Assembly (NCBI GenBank): GCA_022865705.1
Contig: JALHTG010000019.1
Location: forward strand, 11,920 to 75,919
Direction: 5' to 3'
DNA from: Candidatus Bathyarchaeota archaeon
GTDB lineage: Archaea > Thermoproteota > Bathyarchaeia > 40CM-2-53-6 > JALHTG01
DNA: 64,000 nucleotides
In this document: piece after piece, positions 4,801-52,882 of the stretch
Layout: every line of letters begins with the position of its first letter
Numbering within the stretch: position 1 is the first letter of the stretch
The notes under the pieces: generated by a model
Database searches by the model: none
What the model saw: the letters and a program-made list of their open reading frames with translations, nothing else
What the model was told of the DNA's origin: nothing
Position numbers and translations under genes: made by a program

Positions 4801-4808
4801 GCGCGCGC
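4801..4808. repeat. GCGCGCGC junction octamer (copy 1 of 7)
   Basis: Exact octamer in intergenic DNA 24 bp after the prs stop, followed by a stop-riddled segment. Confidence 0.6.
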
Positions 4809-5088
4809 TAAAGGAGAGAATCAAGATCTACACTCTCTGAATCGACGGAAACGATGTGGAAGAATAGGAGGCTTTGCTCGTCAAGCATCGACCTAAACAG
4901 ATAGAGACTAATCTTGGACGATAGAGAATTGACTCATTTCCATGTTGATGTATCATATCCCTGCTTGGCGTGAGGTTTGAGCCATATGTATACGCGAGTG
5001 GTCGCTTCGGCACCTTTCAAATTCGTTCACGGCAAAAAGGCTCTTAACGGCTCAGATGAGACCTTCTGTAGCAGAGGTTGGGAGAAAC

Positions 5089-5601
5089 ATGCCTCTTAAC
5101 TGGATCGGTGCCTTCAAGAGAGCCTTGGTCTACTTCATTTGGCTCATTGTCTGGGGAATTCTCGGAATATTGATGATGGCCATAGGCGCCTATGTCGCCA
5201 CAGTGCCACTCACCAACTTGTTTGCTGGGAAGACTCCAGCAGTTGAAACTGAACTCATCACAGGGATCGTTCTGCTCATTCTTGGCTATATCATCACCAT
5301 GCTCGGTGCAGTAGCTACTTTAATCCGCCTGGTCTACCAGCTCTCATTCGAAGCCACTCAAGAAGCCATGACTAAAGGAAAGCCCACTGGGACTGCTCCT
5401 AGTGTTGCGATGCCCATGACGGAGATCAAGCTTACGCCAACTGCCGTGCAGCCAGTTGTTCAACAACCTTCACCTGAAATTTCACGACAACCAATGGGTT
5501 CGACCGCACCACCAGCACAACAGAAGTACTGTGCCTTCTGTGGAAGAGCCATAACAATAAGCTCAAGGTTCTGTCCGTTCTGCCAGCGAGCACAGCCCTG
5601 A
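5089..5601 (+). CDS. Membrane protein with two TM helices, a Pro/Gln/Thr linker and a C-terminal zinc ribbon
   Basis: Two hydrophobic segments and a terminal CAFCG...FCPFC. ATG 5089 follows GGGAG (ORF track starts at 5056). Confidence 0.8.
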   Translation: MPLNWIGAFKRALVYFIWLIVWGILGILMMAIGAYVATVPLTNLFAGKTPAVETELITGIVLLILGYIITMLGAVATLIRLVYQLSFEATQEAMTKGKPTGTAPSVAMPMTEIKLTPTAVQPVVQQPSPEISRQPMGSTAPPAQQKYCAFCGRAITISSRFCPFCQRAQP

Positions 5602-5610
5602 TCCAGATTT

Positions 5611-7191
5611 CTATGAATGCTTCAGAACTCTGCCAGCCAAGGCGCCGGTATGCTTGCCCTTGTTGATCGTGAGAACACCGTTCACGAACACATACTCTAT
5701 TCCTTTCGGGTATCTCTTCGGGTCGGCATAGGTCGCCACATCGGTCACCTTGTCAGGGTCAAAGACAACCAGATCAGCCCATGCACCGGGCCTAATCACT
5801 CCTCTGTCTCTCAACCCCAGCTTCTGGGCAGGAAGTGAGGTCATCTTGCGTACTCCTTCGGGAAGGCTGATGATGCCTCTGTCACGGACATAATGTCCCA
5901 GAACCCTAGGAAAGGTTCCATAGTTCCGAGGGTGCGGATGCCCTTTACCCAAGATGCCGTACGGAGCTAGCGCAGAACCGTCGCTGCCTATCATAGAGTT
6001 TCTGTAGCTCAGCACGTATTCCACATCTTCTTCCGCCAGACCGAAGCGCACGACGCTAACAGCAAGGCTTTCCTCGATTAGGAGGTCAAAGGTAAAGTCG
6101 AATGGATCCTTCGTTTTCTTCGCTAGCTCCGAGATGAACCTGCCCTGGTACTCCTTGTGTCTAGGGCAATGGGCGATCATTGTTTTATTCCAGTGAGCTG
6201 ATGAGAGAGAGCCTCGCTCCATGTCTCGTCTGACCTTTGCTCGGAACTCCGTTGAGCGTAGGCGTTCAAGGATCTTCTCTGGTCCCCCTTCATGCGCCCA
6301 GTCTGGAAGCATGTTGACTAGACCGAAGCTAGACGCAACATATGGGTAGACGTCACACGTCACATCAACGCCTCTTCTTCTTGCATCTTCCATCAGCTTC
6401 CTTGCCTGCTTCACCTTTCCCCAGTTCTTCCTTCCCCCCGCCTTGTGATGTGAGATCTCAACTGGAATTCCTGATCTCTCTCCGATTGAGATTGCTTCCT
6501 TCACAGCCGCAAACAGTGTGTTGCCTTCTCCTCTTATGTGAGATGTGTAGATCCCTCCATGCGACGCTACAACCTTTGCCAATTGAACAATCTCACTCGT
6601 CTTTGCGTAGCTACCAGGGGGATAGATCAAACCGGTCGAGAGTCCGAACGCGCCTTCTCTCATCGACCTATCGAGCATGATCTTCATCTTCCCCAACTCT
6701 TTCGCGGTGGCACGACGGTTATCATATCCCACTGTCATCTTTCGTAGATTGCCGTGCCCGATCAGAGGTGCAACATTAACAGCTATGGCTCTTCTCTCAA
6801 GCTTTGTAGCGTATTCGGCAAAGCTTGAATAGTCTAGCTTTACACCGGCTTTTACAAGAGGAGCCCCCGTTCTCTTCATCTCTTCTTTGATCGTCTTGTC
6901 AATTGGGGCTCCTGAGTCTCCGCAGTTCCCAATGACTTCTGTTGTGACGCCTTGCCTGATTTTGCTCTCCGCCTTCGGATTGATTAGAAGCGCATCATCC
7001 GAGTGTGAGTGCATGTCAATGAATCCGGGAGTGATCACAAGGTTTCTCACGTTGATTCGGCTTTCAGCTCGTCTCGATTCCAAATCGCCGATCTTTGCTA
7101 TCTTGCCACGGTCTATTCCAATGTCCGCTTTGAACCAAGGGTTCCCTGTCCCATCAATAACATATCCATTCCGTAGCACAATTTCGACCAT
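5611..7191 (-). CDS. N-acyl-D-amino-acid deacylase (D-aminoacylase, amidohydrolase family)
   Basis: PGFIDMHSHSD, QGVTTEVIGNCG, GLSTGLIYPPG, SHIRGE, SHHK and HPRNYGTFPRVLG. Confidence 0.92.
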   Translation of the reverse strand: MVEIVLRNGYVIDGTGNPWFKADIGIDRGKIAKIGDLESRRAESRINVRNLVITPGFIDMHSHSDDALLINPKAESKIRQGVTTEVIGNCGDSGAPIDKTIKEEMKRTGAPLVKAGVKLDYSSFAEYATKLERRAIAVNVAPLIGHGNLRKMTVGYDNRRATAKELGKMKIMLDRSMREGAFGLSTGLIYPPGSYAKTSEIVQLAKVVASHGGIYTSHIRGEGNTLFAAVKEAISIGERSGIPVEISHHKAGGRKNWGKVKQARKLMEDARRRGVDVTCDVYPYVASSFGLVNMLPDWAHEGGPEKILERLRSTEFRAKVRRDMERGSLSSAHWNKTMIAHCPRHKEYQGRFISELAKKTKDPFDFTFDLLIEESLAVSVVRFGLAEEDVEYVLSYRNSMIGSDGSALAPYGILGKGHPHPRNYGTFPRVLGHYVRDRGIISLPEGVRKMTSLPAQKLGLRDRGVIRPGAWADLVVFDPDKVTDVATYADPKRYPKGIEYVFVNGVLTINKGKHTGALAGRVLKHS

Positions 7192-7281
7192 CTATGATCA
7201 CTTGTCTGCTAACAACTAAGCGAAGTTCAGGCTCTTCTGCTTTTGCAGGCATTTTGCGGATAGTTTACTTCAGATTCGTGA

Positions 7282-7289
7282 CGCGCGCG
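7282..7289. repeat. CGCGCGCG junction octamer (copy 2; within the palindrome ACGCGCGCGT)
   Basis: Intergenic, between the D-aminoacylase and the four-gene membrane operon. Confidence 0.5.
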
Positions 7290-37495: not shown

Positions 37496-37497
37496 TC

Positions 37498-40643: not shown

Positions 40644-40688
40644 ACCAAGAAAGTTAATCCTTATGAATCATCATTTGTGTGGATCCAA

Positions 40689-41030
40689 ATGAGTCGTGTA
40701 ATCGATCATCCGATCCTCGGAAGAATGCCGGAAAAAAGGAAAGTCACGATTTGTGTTGATGGACGTCAGGTGCAAGCATTTGAAGGGGAACCAATCGCTG
40801 CAGCACTAATCGCAGCTGGAATCCACATTTGCAGGTTCACCACCAAAAGGAATGAACCCAGGGGACTTTATTGTGCGATCGGTCAGTGTACAGATTGCGT
40901 AATGACCGTTGATGGAGCCCCCAACATCAGAACATGCATTACTCCTGTTAGAAACAACTTGAAAGTAGAAACGCAAATTGGCGTTGGTCAGTGGAGAGAC
41001 GCCACATGCAAGAAACAGACATCGCAATAG
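40689..41030 (+). CDS. (2Fe-2S)-binding subunit of a proline/opine/D-amino-acid dehydrogenase complex
   Basis: GEPIAAALIAAG...PRGLYCAIGQCTDCVMTVDG.PNIRTC. Confidence 0.9.
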   Translation: MSRVIDHPILGRMPEKRKVTICVDGRQVQAFEGEPIAAALIAAGIHICRFTTKRNEPRGLYCAIGQCTDCVMTVDGAPNIRTCITPVRNNLKVETQIGVGQWRDATCKKQTSQ

Positions 41031-42109: not shown

Positions 42110-42112
42110 AAA

Positions 42113-42616
42113 GTGGGAAACCACCTGGCCCATTCAGGAGTTCTATCAGAGGAAGAGTTGGAAAGGTACGGAGTCTATCCGAGCAAAGAGAGATTGAACG
42201 AGGGTCCCGTTGCCATCATAGAATGCATCCAAGCCATTCCATGCGACCCTTGTGTTCATTCCTGCCCGCAGAAGGCAATAGCCATGGAAGGTCTATCTTC
42301 CGTTCCGAAACTTGATGTTGGGAAGTGCATCGGGTGTACACTTTGCATTCCCGATTGCCCGGGTCAAGCCATATTCGTCGTGGATATGACTTACTCGAAA
42401 GACGAGGCCTCGGTCTCCTTTCCATATGAGTTCCTTCCAATTCCGAAGGTCGGAGATCGAATTGAAGCGGTAGATCGCGAAGGCAAGCCTAGGGCCAAGG
42501 GTAGAGTGATAAGAGTCAGGTCGGATACCAAGACCGATCGAACAGTCGTACTGACCATCGCAGTTCCCAAGGACATTGCATTAGAGGTCAGGAGCATGCG
42601 TAGGAGTAGACGGTAA
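42113..42616 (+). CDS. 4Fe-4S ferredoxin subunit of the dehydrogenase complex
   Basis: ECIQAIPCDPCVHSCP and KCIGCTLCIPDCPGQAIF, then FPYEFLP. Confidence 0.9.
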   Translation: MGNHLAHSGVLSEEELERYGVYPSKERLNEGPVAIIECIQAIPCDPCVHSCPQKAIAMEGLSSVPKLDVGKCIGCTLCIPDCPGQAIFVVDMTYSKDEASVSFPYEFLPIPKVGDRIEAVDREGKPRAKGRVIRVRSDTKTDRTVVLTIAVPKDIALEVRSMRRSRR

Positions 42617-42619
42617 GCA

Positions 42620-42901
42620 ATGAGTGATGACGATATTGTGATATGCCGCTGCGAAGAAATCACTAAGAAGGAAATAGTAGCAGCCATAGAGGCGGGAGCT
42701 GACACAATAGCAGCGATACGCAGGATGACTAGGGCTGGAATGGGCCTTTGCCAAGGAAGAACTTGTCGGACACTCATCATGCGGATAATAGCAGAGACAA
42801 AACAGAAGAAGGTTGATGCCATTCTTCCCGCGACTTTTCGAGGTCCGGTCAGGCCGATGAAAATCGAATCATTGTGCTCCGCAGAGGGAAAGAATTGCTA
42901 G
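42620..42901 (+). CDS. BFD-like (2Fe-2S) subunit
   Basis: ICRCEEIT...TRAGMGLCQGRTC...RGPVRP. Confidence 0.9.
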   Translation: MSDDDIVICRCEEITKKEIVAAIEAGADTIAAIRRMTRAGMGLCQGRTCRTLIMRIIAETKQKKVDAILPATFRGPVRPMKIESLCSAEGKNC

Positions 42902-44070
42902 AGACAGAAATCGCAGTGATAGGTGGAGGCGTCATCGGTACTTCGATAGCCTACTACTTGGCGAAGGAGGGAAAGAAGGTGGCTCTCCTTGAGAGAGATC
43001 ACCTCGCATCGGAAACATCCGGAGCATGTGATGGCAACATATTCCTTCAAACCAAACGCCCAGGCATCGGATTGGATCTGGCCATGAAGAGCGCAAGAAT
43101 GTTCGAAGGATTGGAGGAAGAGCTTGGTTATCGCATCGAGTACAAGAAAAACGGAGGCATGGTCATCATTGAAGAGGAAGGGCAATTCGAGGTAATGGAG
43201 AAGTTCGTGCAGGCTCAGAGACAGTCTGGACTTGACGTAGAGATACTAGGAAACGAAGCAGCAAGAAAGGTTGAGCCAGCGTTGGCTGAACACATAGCCG
43301 GTGCAACTTGGAGTCGTTCTGATGGCAATGTGAATCCGATGTTCCTCACCTTCGCGTTCGGACTGGCCGCAAAGAGGCTGGGTGCGAAAATCTGCACTGG
43401 GGCTGAGGTCATATCCATCAAGACTGAGAGCGGCCGAATAAGATCAATCGTGACAAAGCAATCGGAAGTCAAGACGAAGGTGGTGATAAATGCTGCCGGG
43501 TCATACGCTCCCCTGATCGGGGCGATGGTTGGGGTCAACATTCCGATCAAGCCTAGAAGAGGACAACTCGTCGTAACAGAACCTTGTCCCAAGTTCATAA
43601 CCAGTGCTCTCAGCGACGCAAAATACGTTCTCGTTAAGTTGGCTCCTCATCTTGTGAAGAGCGGCGATGATGATGCAAGTAGATTGGGGGTCGGGCTCGC
43701 GCTGGAACAGACTGCAACTGGAAATGTGATTATCGGTGGTACTAGGGAATTCGTCGGGTATGATAAGAGGACCACAATCGAAGGTGTCACTGCCATGGTT
43801 AGACATACATCGAGAATGATGCCAAGGCTGAGACAACTCTGTGTCATAAGAGCCTTCTCTGGACTCAGACCGTATACTCCAGACGGACTTCCGATAATCG
43901 ATTCGTTAGACAACCCAGAGGGTTTTGTTATTGCTGCTGGTCACGAGGGCGACGGAATCGCGTTGGCGCCGATGACTGGCAAGATCGTTGCGAAACTCGT
44001 AACGGAAGGTAAGTTGAGTTCTGAAATGAAAGCATTCGCTCTGAGCAGATTCGAAAAGGACACTGCGTAA
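42895..44070 (+). CDS. FAD-dependent D-amino-acid/proline dehydrogenase catalytic subunit (DadA/HcnC/PdhB-like)
   Basis: VIGGGVIGTSIAYYL, PRRGQ, SGLRPYTPDGLP and GHEGDGIALAP. TTG start overlaps the upstream stop. Confidence 0.9.
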   Translation: MLETEIAVIGGGVIGTSIAYYLAKEGKKVALLERDHLASETSGACDGNIFLQTKRPGIGLDLAMKSARMFEGLEEELGYRIEYKKNGGMVIIEEEGQFEVMEKFVQAQRQSGLDVEILGNEAARKVEPALAEHIAGATWSRSDGNVNPMFLTFAFGLAAKRLGAKICTGAEVISIKTESGRIRSIVTKQSEVKTKVVINAAGSYAPLIGAMVGVNIPIKPRRGQLVVTEPCPKFITSALSDAKYVLVKLAPHLVKSGDDDASRLGVGLALEQTATGNVIIGGTREFVGYDKRTTIEGVTAMVRHTSRMMPRLRQLCVIRAFSGLRPYTPDGLPIIDSLDNPEGFVIAAGHEGDGIALAPMTGKIVAKLVTEGKLSSEMKAFALSRFEKDTA

Positions 44071-44106
44071 TTCGTTTTCACGGAATTCTCTGTATAATGA
44101 GAGTCA

Positions 44107-45006
44107 ATGCGTATAATTGGGGAGCTTGTAGCTCTATCCACCGCGCTGATATGGACGATCTCAAACGTCTTTTATCGCAAGGCTTGGTTCGCAGCCACCC
44201 CGTTTCAGGTCAACCTAGTCCGATTTGCGACATCGGCCATCGCGGCTATTGGATGCTCATTGGTTCTTGACAGATTCCATGCTCTATGCTCCCTATCTCG
44301 GCTTACTATCTTGGCAGCTCTGTTGAGTGGATTTGCCCTCTTCTCGGGTGATTTCTTTTGCATGTTCAGTCTGAAGTGTCTGGGTATGGTGAAGACCCTC
44401 TCAATTACGTTCGTCTACCCTTTGTTCAACGTTGTCATCGCCGTTCTCCTCAAGGGAGAAGAAGCCACGCTATTTGTGGTCATTGGAGCAATAAGTGTGG
44501 TCGCCGGCATTTGGTTGGCAAGTTGGAATGAAAGGGATGATTCAACTGAACCAAGTCGGACAACCTTTAGCAATGGTGTTATTGCGGCACTTGTTGCCGC
44601 TTTGATCGCGTCTGTGAACATCACTTTACTTAACAGTGCCGTTACTCTCGCGAAAACAGCGGGCATAGAGGGGTTGTTTTGCATCGTCACGGTCAGGCTT
44701 GTTGCTGCTATCGTCGTGTCTATGGCACTATCACCCGTCTTCGACAAGAACCTTGGGTGGCTGAGAGTTCCTAGAAATACGTGGATTGTCGCAACCATTG
44801 GTGGTATGATCAGACTGGTTTTGGGCCCCTTCCTACTGGGGTTCAGTTTTCTATATACGCAGGAGGCGCGGGCAGTTCCGATCTCGTCCGTAGCGCCATT
44901 GTTCTCCGTCATTGCAGGGGTACTCTTCCTTCATGAACCTGTTACACGTAGGACTATCTTGGGCTCCAGCATTGTTGCCTCCGGGACCTTTCTGCTGTTC
45001 ATCTGA
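44107..45006 (+). CDS. DMT/EamA family transporter
   Basis: Ten TM helices in two repeats (PLFNVVIAVLLKGE; PLFSVIAGVLFLHE). Confidence 0.9.
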   Translation: MRIIGELVALSTALIWTISNVFYRKAWFAATPFQVNLVRFATSAIAAIGCSLVLDRFHALCSLSRLTILAALLSGFALFSGDFFCMFSLKCLGMVKTLSITFVYPLFNVVIAVLLKGEEATLFVVIGAISVVAGIWLASWNERDDSTEPSRTTFSNGVIAALVAALIASVNITLLNSAVTLAKTAGIEGLFCIVTVRLVAAIVVSMALSPVFDKNLGWLRVPRNTWIVATIGGMIRLVLGPFLLGFSFLYTQEARAVPISSVAPLFSVIAGVLFLHEPVTRRTILGSSIVASGTFLLFI

Positions 45007-45276
45007 GTGAGTACTGTCGTAACCCGTACGCCCACTGGTGAGTTTCCTCAATACTCTTTATCTTCTCTCTTCCACTCTCCGATAAGTGAATGGTCCACGG
45101 GACGTAACATATTGGGCCGAGAAGATAGCGCACATTCCAAAGCAAAGATTGCAGTTTGCTATGATCGCCTTAAATCGTAAGATATCATGCGTGACTCTTG
45201 GAAGCAAGAATCGTGAAAGTGATGCGCAACACATATATGCAAAAAAGGGAAACCTCCAATTCGAAGGGTATGTCCG

Positions 45277-46179
45277 TTGGTGGCAAAACCAGAGGGTTTG
45301 ATAATTCCGATAGTAACGCCATTCACGACCGACTATAAGCTTGACGAGAAAGGGCTAAGAGAAGAGATTCGTTTCTTGTTGGACTATCACATTAATGGAT
45401 TACTTGTTAACGGAAGCACTGGAGAGTTTACTTCTCTTTCAATTGAAGAGCGGCGCAGAATTATCGAGATCGTTTCGGAAGAATGCAAGCGCAAAGTGTT
45501 CATCATTGCAGGTGTTGAGACTCCTGCAACGCAAGATGCCATCGACGAGGCAAAACGTGTGAAGCAGGCAGGAGCCGACTTTGCGCTGGTTGCGACCCCG
45601 TTCTATTTGAAGCCCACTATCGATGGAGTCTACGAGCATTATAAGAGAGTGGCTGAAACCGGCGTACCTACATTGCTCTACAACAACCCGTTCCGAACGT
45701 ATGTCAACCTAAGCGCTTCGCTGGTGAGCAAGTTGGCCGAGCTGAAGAACGTTGTGGGAATCAAGCAGTCAAACGTAGACCTCAGTCAGACCACGGAATA
45801 CATCGAAGTGATAGGAGACAAAATATCTGTCATTCATTCGTATGGAGACGCGGTAAGTGTCTTCCCGGGGCTTCTCCTTGGAGGAGCAGGCGTTATGAAC
45901 ATTACATTCCTCGTCGCTCCAGACAGAGTTATGCAACTGTACGAAGCTACTAGGAGCAGAGATGTGGAGACGGCGAAGAAGATCTGGGTAGAAATACTCT
46001 CTCTGCTGAGAAACATCGGAGGCGGCGTCCATGGTGAACCCAACCCCGCTCCATTGAAAGAAGCCCTCAGGATAGTTGGAAAACCAGCTGGTCCCGCAAG
46101 ACTTCCAGTTCTACCGGTCACAAATGATACAAGTGAACTGCTGAGGAAGATACTGAAGAATCTGAAACTTGCACGCTAA
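45277..46179 (+). CDS. DHDPS/NAL-family class I aldolase or lyase
   Basis: PIVTPF, NGSTGE, TPFY, LLYNNP and Schiff-base Lys in GIKQS. No lysine-biosynthesis neighbours, so substrate uncertain. Confidence 0.85.
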   Translation: MVAKPEGLIIPIVTPFTTDYKLDEKGLREEIRFLLDYHINGLLVNGSTGEFTSLSIEERRRIIEIVSEECKRKVFIIAGVETPATQDAIDEAKRVKQAGADFALVATPFYLKPTIDGVYEHYKRVAETGVPTLLYNNPFRTYVNLSASLVSKLAELKNVVGIKQSNVDLSQTTEYIEVIGDKISVIHSYGDAVSVFPGLLLGGAGVMNITFLVAPDRVMQLYEATRSRDVETAKKIWVEILSLLRNIGGGVHGEPNPAPLKEALRIVGKPAGPARLPVLPVTNDTSELLRKILKNLKLAR

Positions 46180-46210
46180 TTCGCTCGTTCTTCGTGGTAA
46201 GGTGGTTTCT

Positions 46211-46942
46211 TTGCCCATAGAAGGTGGGCGACATCATTACGGAGAGGCAATAGGGATCCTCACACTGGATACGATCTTCCCAAGAATTCCTGGGGATATA
46301 GGCAATGCGAGTACCTTCAGCTTTCCTGTGAGGTTACGCGTGGTAGGAGGAGCCACTCAAGATAGGGTCGTCAAGGAAGGGGGACGAGGTCTTCTAGAAC
46401 CATTCATTGAGGCTGCCAAAGAGCTGGAAAAAGATGGTGTCAGGGCGGTTACAACGAGCTGTGGTTTCCTTGCTCCCTTCCAAGACGATGTCGCAAAAGC
46501 GCTTGCGATTCCGGTGTTCACCTCAAGCCTGATGCAGGTGCCTCTCGTCTACAAGATGCTCGGCAAGGGCACCAGAGTGGGCATACTGACTGCTGACTCC
46601 AGTCACTTGGGCAAGATGCACTTAAGAGGAGCAGGAATTGACCCATCCATCCCTGTGGCAATTGCCGGATTGCAGGATCACGAAGAGTGGGCCAAACCAT
46701 TCCTGAGAAACCAGCCCACAATTGATCCTGAGAAGATAGAGGTGCTTATTGTGAACGCTGCGAAAGAACTGATATCAAAGTATCCCGACACTGGAGCTTT
46801 CGTACTCGAATGTGCGAATATGCATCCGTACTCGGCAGCAATCCAGAGGGAAACAGGACGACCAGTTTTTGACATCATCACGTTTGTAAACTACGTCTAT
46901 CACGCGGTTGTCTGCAAGCCCTTCACAGGAGGGTTCATGTAG
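46211..46942 (+). CDS. Asp/Glu/hydantoin racemase-family protein
   Basis: GILTLDTIFPRIPGDIGNASTF; two catalytic-type cysteines in TTSCGF and LECANM. Confidence 0.85.
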   Translation: MPIEGGRHHYGEAIGILTLDTIFPRIPGDIGNASTFSFPVRLRVVGGATQDRVVKEGGRGLLEPFIEAAKELEKDGVRAVTTSCGFLAPFQDDVAKALAIPVFTSSLMQVPLVYKMLGKGTRVGILTADSSHLGKMHLRGAGIDPSIPVAIAGLQDHEEWAKPFLRNQPTIDPEKIEVLIVNAAKELISKYPDTGAFVLECANMHPYSAAIQRETGRPVFDIITFVNYVYHAVVCKPFTGGFM

Positions 46943-47133
46943 ACAAAAATCCGAGACAGATAGTCCTGTCGCTTCCCGAATCAGTTGAATTCTCTGGAAA
47001 TGCCTTTGAAAGATATGTTACTAGAGTATCCGTTCGACTCAGGCAGAATTCTCCGAGAAATACCAATACACTTCGCATAACGGAGTCCAGACGATGTTCC
47101 GTCTTCTTCATCCCATCAATGCTGCAAGAAACG

Positions 47134-47162
47134 TTGGGACTCAGCATTTTGCTGACTCCCAA
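47134..47162. terminator. Inverted repeat between convergent genes
   Basis: TTGGGA-C-TCAGCA-TTT-TGCTGA-C-TCCCAA: a 12-bp stem with one mismatch. Confidence 0.35.
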
Positions 47163-47233
47163 GGCATTCTCGAATTGTTGATTATTCTCCATTGAATTTC
47201 TAAATCGTTCTTCACGACTTTCGTTTTTTCGAG

Positions 47234-48403
47234 TTACTTCATTCCAGAATTCAATGCCTTCTCGATTCTATCCATTGCCCTCTCAATATTCTCTATGGAG
47301 TTCGCGAAAGAAAGTCTGATGTACCCCTCTCCGAATTCTCCGAAGGCGGTTCCCGGCACAGTTGATACTCTGGCGTGATCTAACAGGGCAAGGCTGAAGT
47401 CGTGTGACGAGAGCCCATATCTGTGAATGTTCGGGAATACATAGAAGGCCCCTTCTGGCGGTACGCATGCTAGCTCCGGTATGCGACTTAATCTATCAAG
47501 AACGAGATCTCTCCTTCGTGAGTACTCCTCACGCATTTGGCGGATACAGTCCTGAGGACCTCTGAGAGCTTCGACCCCAGCTTTCTGAGCTATTGAGTTA
47601 GCACAGGTATTGAGAGTCATATTGATCTTGATCATTTGGCTGATTACCTCTGCAGGCCCTCCGACATATCCAAGCCTCCATCCCGTCATTGCGTATGTCT
47701 TGGAGAATGCATTCACAGTCAAGACTCTTTTGTCCATTCCAGAAAGGGCGCCTATGCTTTGATGTTTGATGCTCCCATAAGTGATCTTCTCGTAGACCTC
47801 GTCAGAAATGATCAAGAGATCGTTCCGTTCGGCTATTGCCGCTATTTCCCTCAGTTCTTCATCAGTCAGGACCGATCCGGTTGGATTGTTGGGACTACAA
47901 ATGAGGATGGCCTTCGTCTTCTTGTTGATCTTAGCTCTAATCTCATTTAAGTCTGGTCCGAAGCGATTTCTTTCCAGAAGGGAGTACTGTATCGGAACGC
48001 CTTGTGCTATCTTAATGCACCCCACATAGTTGGGCCATCCTGGGTCTGGTATGAGAACCTCATCGCCAGGATTAACAGTTGCCATGAGAGATAGGGTAAG
48101 GCCGTTAACTGCGCCTGAAGTAACCATGATTTGTGTCTTTGGGTCGAATTCCAGATCATTCTCTCTGCGAAACTTCCGAGAAATCTGTTCCCTCAGCTCA
48201 AACACTCCTGCCGTTGATGTGTAGTGAGTTTCACCTTCACTCAAAGCACGTGCGGCAGCTGCCGTGATGTGGTCTGGGGTGTTGAAATCAGGTTCGCCAA
48301 CCTCGAGTCGAATAACATCGCTCATAGTCTGTGCTTTCTCAAATATCTCTCGAATTCCTGAGGTAGGTATGCCTCTTGTTCGTTCAGCGATCAGAGGTCT
48401 CAT
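47234..48403 (-). CDS. PLP-dependent class I/II (aspartate-type) aminotransferase
   Basis: GEPDF, SPNNPTG, SDEVY, NAFSKTYAMTGWRLG and YIRLSFA. Confidence 0.94.
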   Translation of the reverse strand: MRPLIAERTRGIPTSGIREIFEKAQTMSDVIRLEVGEPDFNTPDHITAAAARALSEGETHYTSTAGVFELREQISRKFRRENDLEFDPKTQIMVTSGAVNGLTLSLMATVNPGDEVLIPDPGWPNYVGCIKIAQGVPIQYSLLERNRFGPDLNEIRAKINKKTKAILICSPNNPTGSVLTDEELREIAAIAERNDLLIISDEVYEKITYGSIKHQSIGALSGMDKRVLTVNAFSKTYAMTGWRLGYVGGPAEVISQMIKINMTLNTCANSIAQKAGVEALRGPQDCIRQMREEYSRRRDLVLDRLSRIPELACVPPEGAFYVFPNIHRYGLSSHDFSLALLDHARVSTVPGTAFGEFGEGYIRLSFANSIENIERAMDRIEKALNSGMK

Positions 48404-48469
48404 CTTCAACCTCACCGTCCACTGCGGCGGACTTGTTTCTTGGGAAGTGTCCTGAAACATCCTAATTGA

Positions 48470-49699
48470 TCAATGACATATCTCTCTGACAATCAGTTTG
48501 AATTCTTCATCAGTCAGGACTCTCTTCTTCTGCTCCGAGGTTTCTTTTACTCTTGTGAGTAAAGGTTCCACCTTGTCATCGGGAATATGGAGTCCAAGAT
48601 GTCTTGCTTTGTACGCAATTGAGTCTTTCCCACTTTTCTTTCCCATGACAACTCTTACAGGCCGTTGACCAACCAATTCAGGCTTGAATGGAAACATCTC
48701 AAGGGGCATGTTCAGCTGTTCTAACCTATTCCACCAGCCGGCTACGATACCGGACTCTGTGGTGAACGCGTTGTCGCCCACAACTGGTTTGTTAGGAGGC
48801 ATGTCGATTTCCGACAATCTCTCAACGACCTTGGACAAATCATAAAGTCTCTCCTTCCTTATTCCAGTCTTAACACCATAGAGCATCTCAAGGGCAAGAG
48901 CGATTTCGTCGAGAGAGCCGTTTCCCACTCTCTCGCCAATGGCATTGACAGTGGTGTGAACAATCTCCACTCCTGCTGTAACCGCGGCCAACGTATTTGC
49001 CACAGCCAAACCGAAGTCATTATGACAATGAATTTCTATCGGTTTCTTGATCCGTTCTTTCATTCTTGTGACGAAGTATCTGATTGCTTCAGGCGAACAC
49101 ACACCGAATGTATCCACCATGACTAAGGAATCCATGTGGCCTTCCGAAGCGACGGCGTTAACAAGCTTCCAACATGTTTCAAATGAGGCTCTCGTGGCGT
49201 CTATTGTGAAGAAGGCAACATGTAATCCGTGTTCCGCTGCATAGGAGGTTGCTTCTACGGATAGCTGGATAGCATGTTCCTGAGACCATCCGTACGCATA
49301 TTCCAGTATGTGATCACTTGAGGGGATCTCTGTTATGACCCCATCAACGTCGCATTGACGAGCAAGGTCAATATCTGACTTTGCACATCTGGAGAAAGCG
49401 AAGATCTTCGCAGAAAGGCCCTCATGAGTTATAGCCTTTATCGCGGCCATGTCCTGCTTGGACACGGCGGGCATACCGGCTTCAATTCTATCCACACCCG
49501 CCTCGTCTAGGGCTCTTGCTATCTCCAGCTTCTCTTCCTTTCTGAAGATAATACCTGCTTGCTGTTCACCATCTCGAAGCGTAATATCGTGAATCTGGAC
49601 TCTATCTGGCAAGTGGAATCCTTTTCTGACTTCGTCCGCATAGTTGTAGTGACTTACAAACCAATCATCGGCCTTCCATTTTTCCAAATTTCTCACCAT
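48470..49699 (-). CDS. DRE-TIM metallolyase (homocitrate/isopropylmalate/citramalate synthase-like; no regulatory domain)
   Basis: DITLRDGEQQ, IHCHNDFGLAVAN, IGERVGN, ESGI and GKKSG. Confidence 0.88.
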   Translation of the reverse strand: MVRNLEKWKADDWFVSHYNYADEVRKGFHLPDRVQIHDITLRDGEQQAGIIFRKEEKLEIARALDEAGVDRIEAGMPAVSKQDMAAIKAITHEGLSAKIFAFSRCAKSDIDLARQCDVDGVITEIPSSDHILEYAYGWSQEHAIQLSVEATSYAAEHGLHVAFFTIDATRASFETCWKLVNAVASEGHMDSLVMVDTFGVCSPEAIRYFVTRMKERIKKPIEIHCHNDFGLAVANTLAAVTAGVEIVHTTVNAIGERVGNGSLDEIALALEMLYGVKTGIRKERLYDLSKVVERLSEIDMPPNKPVVGDNAFTTESGIVAGWWNRLEQLNMPLEMFPFKPELVGQRPVRVVMGKKSGKDSIAYKARHLGLHIPDDKVEPLLTRVKETSEQKKRVLTDEEFKLIVREICH

Positions 49700-49823
49700 G
49701 TTGTGGCAAGGACTAGCGGAATTATGTCTCATGTGAACTTATGATTGTTTTGGTGAGATCCTCGTTTTGACACCATAGCAAATAAGAAACATATTGTGAG
49801 CAGTTTCGGAGAAGCTCTCGAAC

Positions 49824-49831
49824 GCGCGCGC
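49824..49831. repeat. GCGCGCGC junction octamer (copy 5)
   Basis: Intergenic, at the right edge of the catabolic module. Confidence 0.65.
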
Positions 49832-49944
49832 TGGTCCTGAACTGTGAAAGACCAGCAGAAGTGTAAATCAACAATGCGCCAGACGTCATGGAGTAACAGA
49901 CTGGTTCACAACTCATAAATAGACGTCGTCGTGCAGTTTCCCTC

Positions 49945-50331
49945 ATGTCGCGCTTGCCAAAGATAGTTGCCTATTTCTACGGTAGAGAACACTTTTCAGA
50001 CCTAGCCGAAATGGAGTCACATATTGTTTGTTACTTACAGGAAATAGGCGTGCATTCATATGAAGAACCGGGAGATGTCACTAACGGCTCAATAGTCTTG
50101 TTTGTTTACGAGGATAGGGTTCTCGGTGACGCGGTCATTCGTAGCCTCAGGAAACTATCGGAAGGCGCGGCAAAGATTCAATTTGAACCAAAGCTCGTTA
50201 GGCTATATCCCCGGTATCCGACGTTAGACGAGCTAAGAGACAGCTGGGTTCCAAAGGTTTCACCGCTCAGGACCTCTGAGGAGCTGACGCCTGAACAGTA
50301 CGTCGCCATACTGAAGAGACTAGTTGACTGA
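49945..50331 (+). CDS. Hypothetical protein (possibly EVE/PUA-like fold)
   Basis: 128 aa with protein-like composition. GSIVLFVYEDRVLGDAVI and the terminal LTPEQYVAIL resemble EVE-type domains. Confidence 0.6.
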   Translation: MSRLPKIVAYFYGREHFSDLAEMESHIVCYLQEIGVHSYEEPGDVTNGSIVLFVYEDRVLGDAVIRSLRKLSEGAAKIQFEPKLVRLYPRYPTLDELRDSWVPKVSPLRTSEELTPEQYVAILKRLVD

Positions 50332-50955
50332 CGCGTCGGCCTCAGAATTTCAGATTCTGACTCGATACTCCTCTGAAGAAGACGCTCTTGCATTGGACAC
50401 GGGGCCGCCAGTCTGATTGTTCACAGAAAGGTCTGCCTTAGCAATAGTGAATTGTGCGTTTCCTCCCTTCGAAATCTAATACTCAAGACTTTTTTCGACG
50501 TTTGTTGCATGTTGATAAGCGAGTTCAAGAGCACTCCATGCCTTGGGTTCGTCGACAAAAGCTATGCGGTCGGTTGCGAGGGTGATCTCCGGTGCTTTCA
50601 ATGCTTCTGCTGTCAGAGTACTTGATAGTTTTGCACCCTTTTGGGTATGAGTCCCGCCTGATCCACCATTCCAATCATTCCCTCTGAGCGCGCTAATCTT
50701 ACGCTTCTCGGCGGGATCGCCACTATGAGAGGGAGAGAATCCAACAAGCTTCATCAGGCGAAGTGCGGGCGCTTAACGCTGATTGTGTGTATGATATCGT
50801 GTGTATGTATTGTTGGGTTCCCTACTCTCTACTCTACTACTCAACTACTCTCCAGCTCCTTCTGGCCGGAAACCTACTGGATGTGTTCGGTCGGGATGTG
50901 GATGAAGACCCCGTTCTCAAACTTGATGTCTAGAAACACATTTTTCATCGCCCTA

Positions 50956-50963
50956 GCGCGCGC
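50956..50963. repeat. GCGCGCGC junction octamer (copy 6)
   Basis: Lies in fragment-rich DNA upstream of ahcY. Confidence 0.6.
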
Positions 50964-51274
50964 TCCAACAAATCATCGTCGTTCAGCAAAATTGTGTGTG
51001 TATCAGTTGGTGCGGCCGGCTCAAATTGAACGACGAGAAACGTTCTTGATCGCACGCGATAAGATGACAGAGTCCTGCGCTGAGTCTATGCTCAATCCTC
51101 ATAAGACTACAACTTTGCAATCAGGCGAAACGTATGCATTTCTTTGATGGAGAAGCGCGAGCACCCACTTCTTGAAGGTGATGAGTGCAGTGCTGGATCT
51201 TCTGTTTACATAGGTTCATCTAGGAGATTTCCCATGTCCCGGAGGTCCATCGTTTCGTTCAGGGATGTGGAGAT

Positions 51275-52528
51275 ATGACGTTCAAAGTGAAGGATCTTGG
51301 CCTCGCTGACGCGGGTAAGCTAAAGATTGAGTGGGCAACAACACGCATGCCTGTCCTGGGAAGGCTACGAGAAAGATACGCCAAAGAAAAGCCCCTGAAA
51401 GACATTCGAGTTTCAGGCTGCTTACACATCACCAAAGAGACTGCGGTTCTCGTACAGGCACTAAGCGCAGTAGGTGCCGAAACAGCGTGGTCTGGCTGTA
51501 ATCCCCTTTCTACTCAGGACGATGTTGCGGCTGCATTGGCGAAGGAAGGAGTAAATGTCTACGGCTGGCGCGAGCTGTCAGTTGAAGACTACTACTGGTG
51601 CATCGACCAAACGATCGAATTCAAACCCCATCTTACGTTGGATGACGGCGCTGATCTGACTCTCCGGCTTCACGAGAAAGGCGCAACCTCTCTCAAAGAT
51701 GTGATCGGAGGTACAGAAGAAACCACAACAGGGGTTCACCGTCTGAGAGCTATGCATGAATCGGGAGCGCTTCGATGCCCGATAATCGCAGTGAACGACG
51801 CTGAAACAAAATGGGATTTTGACAATGTTTGGGGAACAGGCCAATCCTCCATTGATGGCATCCTCAGAGCAACCAACATACTCATCGCGGGCAAGATTTT
51901 CGTGGTTGCAGGGTTCGGACACTGCGGACGGGGAGTGGCGATGAGAGCAACCGGCCTAGGCGCCCACACCGTGATTTGTGAAGTTGATCCGTTGAAGGCT
52001 CTCAAAGCGGTCATGGAAGGGTTCAGAGTCATGCCGATGAAGGAAGCCGCCAAGATAGGAGACATATTCATCACAGCAACCGGATGCAAGAATGTCATCA
52101 CCAAAGAACACATGGAACTAATGAAAGATGGAGCAGTCCTATCTAACACGGGTCACTTCAATGTTGAGGTATCGGTCGAAGATCTGGAACGAATAGCTGT
52201 CAAGAAACGAGAGATCAGGCCAAACAATGTGGAGTACACGCTCCGTGACGGGAGGAGACTTTTCTTGCTGGCAGAAGGCCGACTCGTAAACCTGGCAGCA
52301 GCCGAGGGCCATCCGTCAGAGATAATGGACATGAGCTTCGCGAACCAATTCCTTTCACTGATATACCTGGCCGAGCATGGAAGAGCGATGAAACCGGGCG
52401 TATACAACGTTTCCAAAGAGCAGGATCAAGAAGTCGCAATAATAAAGCTAGAGACAATAGGAACCAAAATCGACACACTGACACCTGAACAAGAAAAGTA
52501 CTTGACATCCTTCAAAGAAGGCACCTGA
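51275..52528 (+). CDS. ahcY: Adenosylhomocysteinase
   Basis: GCLHITKET, CNPLSTQDD, DDGADL, EETTTG and GRLVNLAAAEGHPSEIMDMSF. Confidence 0.97.
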   Translation: MTFKVKDLGLADAGKLKIEWATTRMPVLGRLRERYAKEKPLKDIRVSGCLHITKETAVLVQALSAVGAETAWSGCNPLSTQDDVAAALAKEGVNVYGWRELSVEDYYWCIDQTIEFKPHLTLDDGADLTLRLHEKGATSLKDVIGGTEETTTGVHRLRAMHESGALRCPIIAVNDAETKWDFDNVWGTGQSSIDGILRATNILIAGKIFVVAGFGHCGRGVAMRATGLGAHTVICEVDPLKALKAVMEGFRVMPMKEAAKIGDIFITATGCKNVITKEHMELMKDGAVLSNTGHFNVEVSVEDLERIAVKKREIRPNNVEYTLRDGRRLFLLAEGRLVNLAAAEGHPSEIMDMSFANQFLSLIYLAEHGRAMKPGVYNVSKEQDQEVAIIKLETIGTKIDTLTPEQEKYLTSFKEGT

Positions 52529-52874
52529 CCTCAAGAACCTATTCGAGTCTCAGTCAACCCACAGGCAAAAACTGGTAGACGTCACGGCCAAAGCTACACA
52601 TTACTCTATGAATCACTCCGCTCATCATCAAGTGAACACCACGCCAAAGAACAAACGCATCTAATAAGCCGCATCTCCTATACTCTCTCAAGAGAATCCG
52701 CGTAGTTCGGTGCCTGGATTGTCCCTTTGGAGAGGAATAGAATTCATTGCCAGAGGGGACAAGGAAACCCTTCGCTCCTACAATGACCTACTCAACTATG
52801 TCTTCAAACAAATAGACAGCCTGAAACGATTGGTCGCATACGTCGCAGATGAAGACTGGGATCTAGCATCGAAA

Positions 52875-52882
52875 GCGCGCGC
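52875..52882. repeat. GCGCGCGC junction octamer (copy 7)
   Basis: Inside the short, probably truncated ORF 52710..52946, downstream of ahcY. Confidence 0.6.

What the first reader, a model, noticed from the sequence alone, without database searches (positions are those of the whole stretch)
4801..52882. GCGCGCGC octamers mark gene-truncating junctions and module boundaries and match the ends of the resident IS: a candidate excision-scar or module-shuffling system
Seen: GCGCGCGC at 4801, 32242, 38310, 49824, 50956 and 52875, and CGCGCGCG at 7282. A uniform base model predicts about one copy of a given 8-mer per 64 kb, mostly inside genes. All seven lie in intergenic DNA or gene fragments, and by eye I found none in an intact long CDS. 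One sits exactly where guaA is cut off. Successive copies bracket coherent modules: the ABC transporter (32250-38309), the catabolic cluster (38318-49823) and ahcY (50964-52874). The IS at 34591-35730 begins and ends with palindromic GCGCGC, so its two tips are also direct repeats, and joining them out of register yields GCGCGCGC. None of the octamers is flanked by a target-site duplication. Inference: they are footprints of a self-erasing IS left after IS-mediated deletions, rearrangements or module import, or crossover cores of an unknown recombination system.
Basis: partly seen in the sequence, partly recalled or inferred. Interest (0 to 1): 0.85.

Follow-up and report, generated by a model that had tools for sequence, protein, structure and literature searches.

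The report
GCGCGCGC octamers mark IS-linked junctions
An eight-letter palindrome, GCGCGCGC, litters the non-coding DNA of this sediment archaeon, is where one family of jumping genes always sits, and lies at the edges of deleted, copied and imported DNA, so it looks like the seam along which this genome is cut and re-joined.

Summary
GCGCGCGC is the commonest 8-mer of this 2.17-Mb Bathyarchaeia-type genome: 346 copies in 328 maximal runs, of which 267 lie in the 19% I call non-coding (278 copies there against 5.2 expected). Run lengths peak sharply at 8, so this is not slippage. Density is equal in convergent, divergent and tandem spacers, so it is not a promoter or terminator signal. The flanks favour A...T and carry no duplication.

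Two related IS1182/IS5-like elements in this genome sit inside such runs. So do 44 of 52 relatives with findable ends in other Bathyarchaeia records, usually as 6+6, which fits an octamer plus a 4-bp duplication.

The ends of non-IS repeats fall on the runs about ten times more often than chance. A second genome (G035) shows the same.

In the window, a guaA stub ends at octamer 32242. A 19-kb block missing from a congener is edged by octamers 32242 and 50956. Homology to congeners restarts right after octamer 52875.

My reading (about 0.5): the octamer is the landing and breakage site of this IS family, and probably also its by-product. How octamers arise is unresolved, because two octamer-rich relatives show no such IS. 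I rate it a new variant of known kinds (REP-targeting IS elements, palindrome-targeting IS1182 elements).

The parts
4801..4808 (.). GCGCGCGC octamer in the spacer after a ribose-phosphate pyrophosphokinase-like gene
   Evidence: It lies between gene calls 3908-4777 and 5056-5601 (Pfam). Synteny with G001 and G004 continues across it.
7282..7289 (.). CGCGCGCG octamer in the spacer between two minus-strand genes
   Evidence: It lies between gene calls 5611-7191 and 7378-8109. Synteny is unbroken.
32156..32245 (+). guaA 5' stub of 30 codons that ends at the next octamer
   Evidence: TIGR00888 positions 1-30, E 7.8e-8. The DNA is 80% identical to the real guaA start at G000:C79:21540-21633, up to window 32238.
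32242..32250 (.). 9-nt GC run (GCGCGCGCG) at the left edge of the block that G004 lacks
   Evidence: Synteny with G004:C1 stops at window 31845. Contigs of X1 and X2 bridge it.
31846..51270 (.). About 19 kb (ABC transporter, IS, catabolic genes) absent between the MlrC-like gene and ahcY in congener G004
   Evidence: G004:C1:36762-38273 matches window 30334-31845, and G004:C1:39166-40425 matches window 51270-52528.
34591..34596 (.). GCGCGC run abutting the left end of the IS
34597..35724 (-). IS-A: an IS1182/IS5-like insertion sequence with inverted repeat CAGCTTCTTGCAAAAC. Its transposase is split into ORFs 35009-35632 and 34612-35148.
   Evidence: Domains DUF772 and DDE_Tnp_1. NCBIfam IS1182 scores 78.8 and 66 bits, below the cut-off. 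There are 22 ends in the genome, most at contig ends, and each abuts a GC run of 4-8 nt.
35725..35731 (.). GCGCGCG run abutting the right end of the IS
38309..38317 (.). 9-nt GC run between the ABC transporter genes and the catabolic cluster
   Evidence: Contigs of X1, X2, X3 and X4 bridge it.
49823..49831 (.). 9-nt GC run. In a sister strain (run X4) two contigs stop at 49824 and start at 49832 and run on into unlike sequence.
   Evidence: (records 29 and 30; joint 40542/49824 on opposite strands, 36 nt).
50777..50958 (.). 182-bp segment duplicated at G000:C30:3669-3850 (96% identity). The octamer is at its right edge here and at its left edge in C30.
50956..50963 (.). GCGCGCGC octamer 312 nt upstream of ahcY, at the right edge of the 19-kb block
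52875..52882 (.). GCGCGCGC octamer downstream of ahcY, at a homology breakpoint with congeners
   Evidence: G001:C51:508-673 matches window 52708-52873. G004:C1:42422-42656 and G001:C13:17117-17347 match from window 52882 onward.

Best explanation
GCGCGCGC (consensus (T)A-GCGCGCGC-T(A)) is a hyper-abundant, almost purely non-coding palindrome. It occurs in this Bathyarchaeia-type genome and in a patchy set of related genomes.

It is the specific insertion site of a Bathyarchaeia-restricted family of IS1182/IS5-like DDE insertion sequences. An element enters the middle of the run and duplicates 4 bp, giving GCGCGC-IS-GCGCGC. In some subfamilies it duplicates all 8 bp.

Because these elements cut and paste only there, I infer that the octamers are where the chromosome is repeatedly broken and re-joined. 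Error-prone repair, IS-IS recombination and IS-adjacent deletions followed by loss of the IS would then leave an octamer at the edges of truncated genes, partial duplicates, captured fragments and strain-specific blocks such as the 19-kb block in this window.

New runs most likely come from the elements' own target duplications. One route is GCGC -> GCGC-IS-GCGC -> GCGCGCGC. Another is one run becoming two runs with filler DNA between them. The runs then decay by transitions.

Shown: the abundance and non-coding location, IS occupancy, coincidence with breakpoints, and the decay spectrum. Inferred: that IS activity causes the breaks, and how octamers are born.
For: Abundance:
- GCGCGCGC is the commonest 8-mer, 346 copies.
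- Of 328 maximal runs, 267 are non-coding, 57 coding and 4 straddle a boundary; the coding fraction is 0.806.
- Non-coding DNA holds 278 copies against 5.2 expected from a first-order Markov model.

A discrete unit:
- Non-coding run lengths are 5:398, 6:177, 7:121, 8:167, 9:65, 10:30.
- The phase is GCGCGCGC in 145 and CGCGCGCG in 22.

IS occupancy:
- All 22 IS-A ends, and 14 of 19 hits to the IS-B inverted-repeat motif, abut GC runs.
- The 13 complete copies in G035 are mostly TA-GCGCGC-[IS]-GCGCGC-TA.
- Of 52 elements with a detectable inverted-repeat pair, out of 67 loci and nearly all from Bathyarchaeia records, 44 have runs of 5 nt or more at both tips. The pairs are 6+6 in 12, 7+6 in 9, 6+7 in 6 and 8+8 in 3, although the inverted repeats differ and the transposases share only 28-45% identity.
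- The transposase scores best against NCBIfam IS1182 (134-136 bits). That family holds IS1272, which targets inverted repeats (PMC5678879: abstract, section 22 and passages read).

Junctions:
- Non-IS repeat endpoints near runs of 8 nt or more: 56 of 1046 against 5.2 random.
- Non-coding endpoints only: 42 of 513 against 4.7, maximum 10.
- There is no enrichment for 4- and 5-nt runs, or for GGATCC, GCATGC, CTCGAG and GGCGCC.
- 51 of 328 runs are touched by such an endpoint.
- In the C14/C82 pair, about 120 nt inside a paralogue is replaced by GCGCGCGC.
- G035 repeats the result: top 8-mer (265 copies), non-coding peak at 8 (159), and low-copy endpoints 54 of 987 against 2.1.

Window cases.

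Decay: single transitions are 5.5-7.5x over expectation, and transversions at positions 3-4 are 1.5-2.4x.

Co-occurrence: 5 of the 7 genomes with 68 or more octamers hold the IS family.
Against: - G016 (165 octamers, 96% complete) and G039 (120 octamers, 94% complete) gave 0 matches to the transposase profile. Their few DDE_Tnp_1 genes have no GCGCGC nearby. Octamers therefore exist without a detectable IS, unless the IS copies were lost in assembly or binning.
- No octamer was caught being born. The sister strains covered (about 0.65% divergent) keep octamers 32242, 38310 and 50956 unchanged.
- The sequence data cannot separate 'target' from 'IS tip or footprint', because a GC run is both a direct and an inverted repeat.
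- Part of the endpoint enrichment may arise because octamers often hug gene ends, where paralogue homology stops anyway. In tandem spacers 13 of 125 lie within 10 nt of a stop codon, and in a 99.8%-identical duplicate the octamer follows the TGA directly.
- My gene calls are crude.
- Related genomes and multiple IS copies are not independent samples.
Confidence: 0.5

Rival explanations
1. The octamer is a host motif with its own origin and upkeep: a site for a dimeric DNA-binding protein, a structure-prone (Z-DNA-type) element, or a repair- or methylation-driven iterated palindrome like cyanobacterial HIP1. The IS family merely uses it as a safe intergenic landing site, as some bacterial IS elements use REP sequences. 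Junctions carry octamers only because the IS elements that cause rearrangements sit there.
For: - G016 and G039 are octamer-rich and no such IS was found in them.
- The A/T preference on each side makes a 10-12-bp palindrome, as expected of a site read by a symmetric protein. In G000, -1 is A in 195 of 327 and +1 is T in 198 of 327. In G035 the figures are 220 and 232 of 287.
- There are hints of positional conservation. G001 has TTAGCGCGCT in the spacer that holds octamer 4801. G004 has CGCGCGC 204 nt upstream of ahcY.
- IS targeting of abundant palindromes is known (PMC1525189, search listing only; PMC5678879).
Against: - Decayed copies are nearly as common as intact ones, and they are transition-biased: 198 single-transition variants at positions 2-4 against 278 intact octamers. 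That argues against strong selection on each site.
- Density is the same in convergent, divergent and tandem spacers, 0.59-0.66 per kb.
- The distribution is patchy, even within the genus: G000 has 346, its congeners 2-49.
- No C5-methyltransferase was found in G000, G024, G016, G039 or G038. N4/N6 methyltransferases are in 38 of 41 genomes and so do not discriminate.
- This reading does not by itself explain octamers inside deletions of coding paralogues.
Confidence: 0.27
2. The octamer is the joint, or minimal end, of a cut-and-join system. DNA lying beside or between octamers is copied or moved as a cassette by the IS transposase acting on octamers alone or by an unknown enzyme, so islands are assembled module by module.
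For: - Segments between neighbouring runs have a second copy elsewhere more often than control spacer DNA: 49 of 191 against 83 of 573, Fisher p = 6e-4.
- A 99-bp copy on C66 is flanked by runs on both sides.
- The 182-bp duplicate has an octamer at opposite edges in its two copies.
- The 19-kb block is edged and subdivided by octamers.
- In X4, a 36-nt inverted copy of window 40507-40542 is joined at octamer 49824.
- Near-identical duplicates (up to 99.8%) end exactly at an octamer in G035.
Against: - Most duplicates have an octamer at one end only, and in one copy only.
- No cassette was seen in two places with both joints.
- No recombinase or arm sequences are associated; flanks are random beyond +-2 nt.
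- The enrichment of copies is only two-fold and may include IS debris.
- Ordinary IS-mediated rearrangement explains the same pattern.
Confidence: 0.12
3. The junctions are artefacts: assembly chimeras, collapsed IS copies or amplification chimeras at GC palindromes.
For: IS copies do break this assembly; most IS ends lie at contig ends.
Against: - Independent contigs of runs X1 and X2, from two studies, bridge octamers 32242, 38310 and 49824 with 0-18 differences per record.
- The same pattern holds in a 5-contig genome of another family and in several further genomes.
Confidence: 0.03

Closest known systems
IS1182-family elements that target palindromes (IS1272 of Staphylococcus; PMC5678879: abstract, section 22 and passages read)
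   Same: The DDE transposase has a DUF772 N-terminal part and a DDE_Tnp_1 core, and its best NCBIfam match is IS1182. Insertion is into a palindromic target. The outcome depends on where the palindrome is attacked. That paper's model includes replacement of the palindrome, duplication of its loop, or duplication of the whole palindrome. Here 4 or 8 bp are duplicated.
   Different: Scores are below the curated IS1182 and IS5 cut-offs (134-136 against 270; 103 against 140). The target is one fixed 8-bp sequence, not any stem-loop of 21-85 bp. The host is archaeal. The target itself is the commonest 8-mer of the genome.
REP/BIME sequences and the IS elements that insert into them (PMC1525189, seen as a search listing; the names IS1397 and ISPpu9/10 are recalled, apart from the ISPpu9 title and abstract start in the listing)
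   Same: Both are abundant extragenic palindromes that serve as specific landing sites for IS elements and that keep insertions out of genes.
   Different: REPs are 20-40 bp imperfect hairpins, spread by a RAYT (Y1) transposase. Here the unit is 8 bp, too short for a hairpin, and no RAYT link was examined.
HIP1 (GCGATCGC) of cyanobacteria and alternate iterated palindromes (recalled; my searches found no paper linking such palindromes to GCGCGC)
   Same: Both are GC-rich 8-bp palindromes that are among the commonest words of the genome and are patchily distributed among relatives.
   Different: As I recall it, HIP1 is frequent inside genes and goes with cognate methyltransferases. Here 81% (G000) to 90% (G035) of runs are non-coding, and no C5-methyltransferase was found in G000.
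Transposon excision footprints and IS insertion at DNA breaks (Tc1/mariner footprints recalled; bioRxiv 10.1101/2024.06.02.596822, abstract read)
   Same: A short sequence is left at a place where an element was. IS movement is associated with large deletions and duplications, without a target duplication.
   Different: No duplication flanks the octamers. The footprint would have to be made of the element's own 4-bp target duplicates. Occupied octamers do not leave the 12-nt runs that this route predicts.

Membership tests
IS1182 / IS5-type DDE insertion sequence (the IS, not the octamer) | DDE_Tnp_1 catalytic domain with a DUF772 N-terminal domain | tested here: met
   PF01609 E 3.3e-17 and PF05598 E 2.6e-11 for IS-B. 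The same two domains are split over the two ORFs of the window copy.
IS1182 / IS5-type DDE insertion sequence (the IS, not the octamer) | Score above the curated NCBIfam cut-off of a named IS family | tested here: not met
   IS1182 scores 133.9, 136.3 and 101.2 bits against a cut-off of 270. IS5_4 scores 103.2, 96.5 and 66.8 bits against a cut-off of 140.
IS1182 / IS5-type DDE insertion sequence (the IS, not the octamer) | Terminal inverted repeats and multiple copies | tested here: met
   There are 22 IS-A ends and an IS-B of about 1.12 kb with inverted repeats. An inverted-repeat pair was found in 52 of 67 loci from other genomes.
IS1182 / IS5-type DDE insertion sequence (the IS, not the octamer) | Palindromic target, as described for some IS1182 members | tested here: met
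   GC runs of 5 nt or more at both tips in 44 of 52 elements. Left run + right run - 4 = 8 in the commonest class. No insertion event was observed directly.
REP/BIME (RAYT-mobilised extragenic palindromes) | Imperfect palindrome of 20-40 bp able to form a hairpin | tested here: not met
   The unit is 8 bp, and flanks are random beyond +-2 nt.
REP/BIME (RAYT-mobilised extragenic palindromes) | Cognate Y1 (RAYT) transposase gene | not tested
   I made no search for a Y1 transposase.
HIP1-like highly iterated palindrome | 8-bp GC-rich palindrome among the commonest words of the genome | tested here: met
   It ranks first among 8-mers in G000 (346 copies) and in the 1.99 Mb of G035 examined (265 copies).
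HIP1-like highly iterated palindrome | Frequent inside genes as well as between them (feature recalled) | tested here: not met
   In G000, 57 runs are coding and 267 non-coding out of 328. In G035, 26 are coding and 258 non-coding out of 287.
HIP1-like highly iterated palindrome | Cognate cytosine methyltransferase present wherever the palindrome is abundant | tested here: inconclusive
   PF00145 was not found in G000, G024, G016, G039 or G038. PF01555 is present in 38 of 41 genomes whatever their octamer count. The specificities of these enzymes are unknown.
Transposon excision footprint | Target-site duplication kept on both sides of the remnant | tested here: not met
   Direct repeats flanking the runs match permuted flanks. 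For k = 2, 30 observed against 34.4; for k = 4, 2 against 1.5; for k of 6 or more, 0.
Transposon excision footprint | Occupied and empty alleles of the same site | tested here: inconclusive
   In X4, contigs break at both edges of octamer 49824 and run on into unlike sequence. Contigs only; the inserted sequence was not seen in full.
Core of a site-specific recombination site (att/dif-like) | Conserved recombinase-binding arms around the core | tested here: not met
   There is no conservation beyond -2...+2 across the 327 of 328 runs that have full flanks.

The most novel reading that the evidence does not exclude
The octamer is the only cis-requirement of a cut-and-join system. Any DNA that lies beside or between two GCGCGCGC sites can be copied or moved, by this IS family's transposase or by an unknown enzyme. 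Bathyarchaeia would then build and reshuffle gene blocks along 8-bp palindromic seams, a cassette system with the shortest known joint.
Probability: 0.12. Interest if true: 0.85.

Novelty: new variant of a known kind. Interest (0 to 1): 0.62.

Why it matters
Bathyarchaeia are abundant, uncultured sediment archaea, and how their genomes change is hardly known. This finding gives a simple sequence mark, readable in any assembly, for three things:
- where one of their IS families lands;
- where their assemblies break;
- where deletions, partial gene copies and strain-specific blocks begin and end.

If the causal chain holds, it would be a clear case of a transposon family confining both itself and the damage it causes to an 8-bp site kept out of genes. 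It would then offer a natural system for studying target choice by IS1182-like transposases and break repair in archaea.

It is also of practical use. The octamers predict contig ends and pseudogene edges in metagenome-assembled genomes of this group.

Tried and rejected
Readings tested and rejected:
- Slippage of a GC microsatellite. The run-length spectrum falls geometrically to 5 nt and then peaks at 8, with a strong phase bias.
- Promoter or terminator element. Density is equal in tandem, divergent and convergent spacers.
- Part of a longer repeat. Flanks are random beyond +-2 nt, and only two recurrent flanks exist, both of them IS ends.
- TA target duplication, with the IS tips being GCGCGC. 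Near-identical G035 copies lack TA on one side (for example L033, AGA...TAG). Left and right flanks are independent.
- A duplication outside the runs. Only the window copy shows TTTGTA on both sides, in a TTTGT-rich context, and no other pair could be made.
- HIP-like methylation drive by a C5-methyltransferase. None was found in G000 or in four other octamer-rich genomes. PF01555 does not discriminate.

Steps that led nowhere:
- Base-level comparison of orthologous spacers with congeners. Genes are only 66-80% identical and the spacers do not align.
- G035 against G024. The one long shared block (8.4 kb, 80% identity) holds no octamer.
- Metagenome scan with ahcY for near relatives. The best hit has 66% amino-acid identity, so nothing was usable.
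- Octamers inside repeats as 'filled against empty' pairs. Only 3 cases turned up, and only one was informative, ambiguously.
- Rfam on the window: no match.
- Papers: no report of GCGCGC(GC) abundance in archaea or Bathyarchaeia in searches. One search gave nothing on IS elements of Bathyarchaeia beyond passing mentions.
- Read laying gave contigs only, so no read-level allele frequencies and no IS circle junctions. Parts of the stretch without cover carry no meaning.
- Supplementary files of papers were not consulted. Those of PMC5678879 (S3 Fig, target sets) may bear on the comparison with IS1272.
- All 40 Python scripts were used. A control that matches endpoints for distance to gene ends could therefore not be run.

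Full report
1. OBSERVATION

There are 6 matches against 0.48 expected, and 0 of 100 shuffles reach 6. For CGCGCGCG there are 4 against 0.47, three of which overlap the former.

The window is G000:C107:11920-75919, part of a 2,167,407-bp assembly of 117 contigs with 49% G+C. The organism is an archaeon: it has both subunits of DNA polymerase D (each above its curated cut-off) and Hef. The IS family described below occurs almost only in records titled Candidatus Bathyarchaeota or Bathyarchaeia, 65 of 67 loci.

2. THE PHENOMENON IS GENOME-WIDE

GCGCGCGC is the commonest 8-mer of the genome, with 346 copies. There are 328 maximal alternating runs of 8 nt or more: 200 of 8 nt, 83 of 9, 36 of 10 and 9 longer.

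I called genes with a crude ORF and codon-bias method of my own (1991 calls, 80.6% coding). By those calls, 267 runs are wholly non-coding, 57 coding and 4 straddle a boundary. Other GC-rich palindromes show the opposite bias: GGCGCC is 323 coding and 62 non-coding, GGATCC is 431 and 69. The 57 'coding' runs sit in shorter and lower-scoring calls than average: median 202 against 262 aa, and 0.067 against 0.095 score per codon.

Non-coding DNA holds 278 copies against 5.2 expected from a first-order Markov model.

The run-length spectrum in non-coding DNA falls geometrically to 5 nt and then peaks at 8: 4:1410, 5:398, 6:177, 7:121, 8:167, 9:65, 10:30. There is a phase bias of 145 GCGCGCGC to 22 CGCGCGCG. 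This is a discrete octamer, not a microsatellite.

On the flanks, A precedes the run in 195 of 327 cases and T follows it in 198 of 327. There is nothing beyond +-2 nt. The two sides are statistically independent, so there is no duplication and no extended palindrome beyond chance.

Density is 0.59, 0.66 and 0.62 runs per kb in tandem, divergent and convergent spacers. That argues against a promoter or terminator role.

3. THE IS CONNECTION

The window IS (IS-A, body 34597-35724) carries DUF772 and DDE_Tnp_1 domains, split over two ORFs. A second element, IS-B, is about 1.12 kb with an intact ORF of 329-343 aa. Its transposase is 42-46% identical to that of IS-A.

All 22 IS-A ends found abut a GC run: 9 of 6 nt, 5 of 7 nt, 6 of 8 nt, and one each of 5 and 4 nt. 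So do 14 of 19 hits to the IS-B end motif. Among all flanks of GC runs, only these two sequences recur.

In G035, which belongs to another family of the same order and has only 5 contigs, I read 13 complete copies of two IS types. The usual structure is TA-GCGCGC-[IS]-GCGCGC-TA.

A scan of one genome per species with a transposase profile gave 67 loci. Of these, 52 have a detectable inverted-repeat pair. Of those 52, 44 have GC runs of 5 nt or more at both tips (6+6 in 12, 7+6 in 9, 6+7 in 6, 8+8 in 3), 6 have a run at one tip or shorter runs, and 2 have none. This holds although the inverted repeats differ between subfamilies and transposase identity goes down to 28%. Several of these loci come from the same genomes, so they are not independent.

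Left run plus right run minus 4 equals 8 in the commonest class. That is what insertion into an octamer with a 4-bp duplication gives. The 8+8 cases fit duplication of the whole palindrome.

The best NCBIfam match is IS1182 at 134-136 bits, below the cut-off of 270. IS1272, of that family, targets inverted repeats. The authors' model allows replacement of the palindrome, or duplication of its loop or of the whole palindrome, depending on where it is attacked (PMC5678879: abstract, section 22 and passages read).

A model in which GCGCGC is the IS tip and TA is the duplication fails, because near-identical copies lack TA on one side.

4. JUNCTIONS IN THE WINDOW

(a) A guaA stub of 30 codons ends at octamer 32242.

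(b) In congener G004, the MlrC-like gene (matching window 30334-31845) is followed about 0.9 kb later by ahcY (matching window 51270-52528). The roughly 19 kb between them in the window is therefore an indel. Octamers 32242 and 50956 lie in its two edge spacers, and 38310 and 49824 lie inside it.

(c) A 182-bp segment (50777-50958) is duplicated on contig C30 at 96% identity. The octamer is at its right edge here and at its left edge there.

(d) Homology to G001 and G004 stops at 52873 and restarts at 52882, the two sides of octamer 52875.

(e) In run X4, a strain about 0.65% divergent, one contig ends at 49824 and another starts at 49832. Both run on into unlike sequence. Thirty-six letters of it are an inverted copy of window 40507-40542.

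The junctions are real. Contigs of X1 and X2, from two studies, bridge 32242, 38310 and 49824.

5. JUNCTIONS GENOME-WIDE

I compared the genome with itself and removed every match that touches IS-A- or IS-B-like sequence. Of the 1046 unique internal endpoints that remained, 56 lie within 6 nt of a run of 8 nt or more, against 5.2 at random.

By run length (within 4 nt), the enrichment is 0.9x for 4-nt runs, 1.1x for 5, 4x for 6, 10x for 7, 14x for 8, 12x for 9 and 15x for 10 or more. GGATCC, GCATGC, CTCGAG and GGCGCC are not enriched.

Restricted to non-coding endpoints and non-coding random positions, the count is 42 of 513 against 4.7, with a maximum of 10 in 50 trials.

Of the 328 runs, 51 are touched by such an endpoint and 14 abut IS sequence directly.

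In 20 of the 21 printed junctions, the copy without the octamer simply continues with unrelated sequence and has no GC run at that place; in the C66 pair it has GCGCGC about 30 nt on. In 16 of 20 pairs, homology does not resume within 3 kb. Two of the four that resume are same-contig overlaps. In the C14/C82 pair, about 120 nt inside a paralogous coding region is replaced by GCGCGCGC.

Segments between neighbouring runs have a second copy elsewhere in 49 of 191 cases, against 83 of 573 for control spacer segments (Fisher p = 6e-4).

6. REPLICATION IN G035

I examined 1.99 Mb of G035. GCGCGCGC is again the top 8-mer, with 265 copies. The non-coding spectrum is 5:356, 6:142, 7:84, 8:159, 9:61, 10:30, against 15 coding 8-nt runs. 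A precedes the run in 220 of 287 cases and T follows in 232 of 287.

Low-copy, non-IS endpoints lie near runs in 54 of 987 cases against 2.1 expected. For non-coding endpoints the count is 50 of 646 against 6.3, maximum 11.

One 1008-bp duplicate is 99.8% identical and ends exactly at an octamer that follows a TGA stop in one copy only.

This example also shows a caveat. Octamers often hug gene ends: 13 of 125 in tandem spacers lie within 10 nt of a stop codon. Paralogue homology ends there anyway, so part of the enrichment may come from that. I had no scripts left to control for it. The mid-gene cases (the guaA stub, and the C14/C82 pair) are not explained by it.

7. TURNOVER AND DISTRIBUTION

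Single-transition variants of the octamer are 5.5-7.5x over expectation in non-coding DNA, while transversions at positions 3-4 are 1.5-2.4x. In numbers, 198 variants with a transition at positions 2-4 stand against 278 intact octamers. Octamers are therefore born whole and decay by ordinary mutation, which calls for a continuing source.

Among 41 genomes of the order, the counts are patchy: G000 346, G024 325, G035 298, G016 165, G039 120, G038 85, G030 68, G001 49, and the other five congeners 2-23. The 12-mer TAGCGCGCGCTA follows the same pattern.

The transposase profile finds the family in 5 of the 7 genomes with 68 or more octamers. It finds none in G016 and G039. The few DDE_Tnp_1 genes of those two genomes have no GCGCGC nearby.

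G010 has only 5 octamers, and two of them flank its one complete IS, as 8+8.

No C5-methyltransferase was found in G000 or in four other octamer-rich genomes. N4/N6 methyltransferases are nearly universal in the order.

8. READING

What is shown:
- a discrete, hyper-abundant, non-coding octamer;
- strict association with one IS family across Bathyarchaeia;
- coincidence with breakpoints of homology in two genomes;
- a decay spectrum.

What is inferred:
- IS traffic makes the octamers hot spots of breakage and error-prone re-joining.
- The elements' target duplications are the source of new runs.

The main rival is a host motif that the IS merely exploits. G016 and G039 keep it alive, as does the symmetric A/T flank preference. 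The bold reading, octamer-bounded cassettes that move, is not excluded but has only indirect support.

Compared with what is known, this combines features of REP-targeting IS elements, palindrome-targeting IS1182 elements and iterated palindromes such as HIP1. It fails defining features of REP (length, hairpin), of HIP1 (presence in genes, cognate C5-methyltransferase) and of a classical footprint (flanking duplication).

I found no report of it in searches. Those searches cover only the held library.

Noticed in passing
G000 genome-wide, for example C19:7021-7080 and C82:1118; also X4 loose end at window 34645: A second GC palindrome, GGCCGGCC (often CGGCCGGCCG), behaves similarly. 63 of 88 copies are non-coding. 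CGGCCGGC occurs 121 times against 6.5 expected in non-coding DNA. Repeat endpoints fall near it 10 times against 1.1 expected.
   Followed up: partly
window 34612-35632 (-): The transposase of the window IS is split into two overlapping ORFs (35009-35632 and 34612-35148). This is either a frameshifted dead copy or programmed frameshifting. IS-B and the G035 elements have a single ORF.
   Followed up: no
window 52882-53116: About 235 bp starting at the first base after octamer 52875 is conserved at 71-77% in congeners and present twice in G004 (C1 and C46). It has no Rfam match and only short ORFs. It could be a small gene or an unknown RNA.
   Followed up: no
window 34579-34596 and 35725-35745: The window IS, together with its GC runs, is flanked by TTTGTA on both sides, in a TTTGT-rich stretch. 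It is the only copy with a direct repeat outside the runs.
   Followed up: partly
L030 (G035:C1:586540-589478): One G035 IS copy is flanked by TTCGGATA-GCGCGC...GCGCGC-TATCCGAA. If it sits in a pre-existing octamer, that target was a perfect 24-bp palindrome.
   Followed up: no
G001:C29 about 7880-7900 (L003); G004:C1:38962 (L037): Octamer-poor congeners carry shorter GC runs near the places of window octamers 4801 and 50956: TTAGCGCGCT and CGCGCGC. This may be positional conservation of the sites across species.
   Followed up: no
L190: One contig of a MAG titled Patescibacteria group bacterium carries this otherwise Bathyarchaeia-restricted IS, with GC-run tips. This is either mis-binning or transfer.
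   Followed up: no
G000 and G035 non-coding DNA: CACACACA is also over-represented. In G000 non-coding DNA it occurs 98 times against 10 expected, and it has 196 copies in the G035 sample.
   Followed up: no
G000:C56:2891-3178 and 5333-5500; C66:16498-16709; C19:6920-7080: There are short arrays of three or four GC runs separated by 43-99 nt of unrelated sequence, including two 72-nt gaps in a row on C56. In all, 209 neighbouring run pairs lie 400 nt or less apart.
   Followed up: partly
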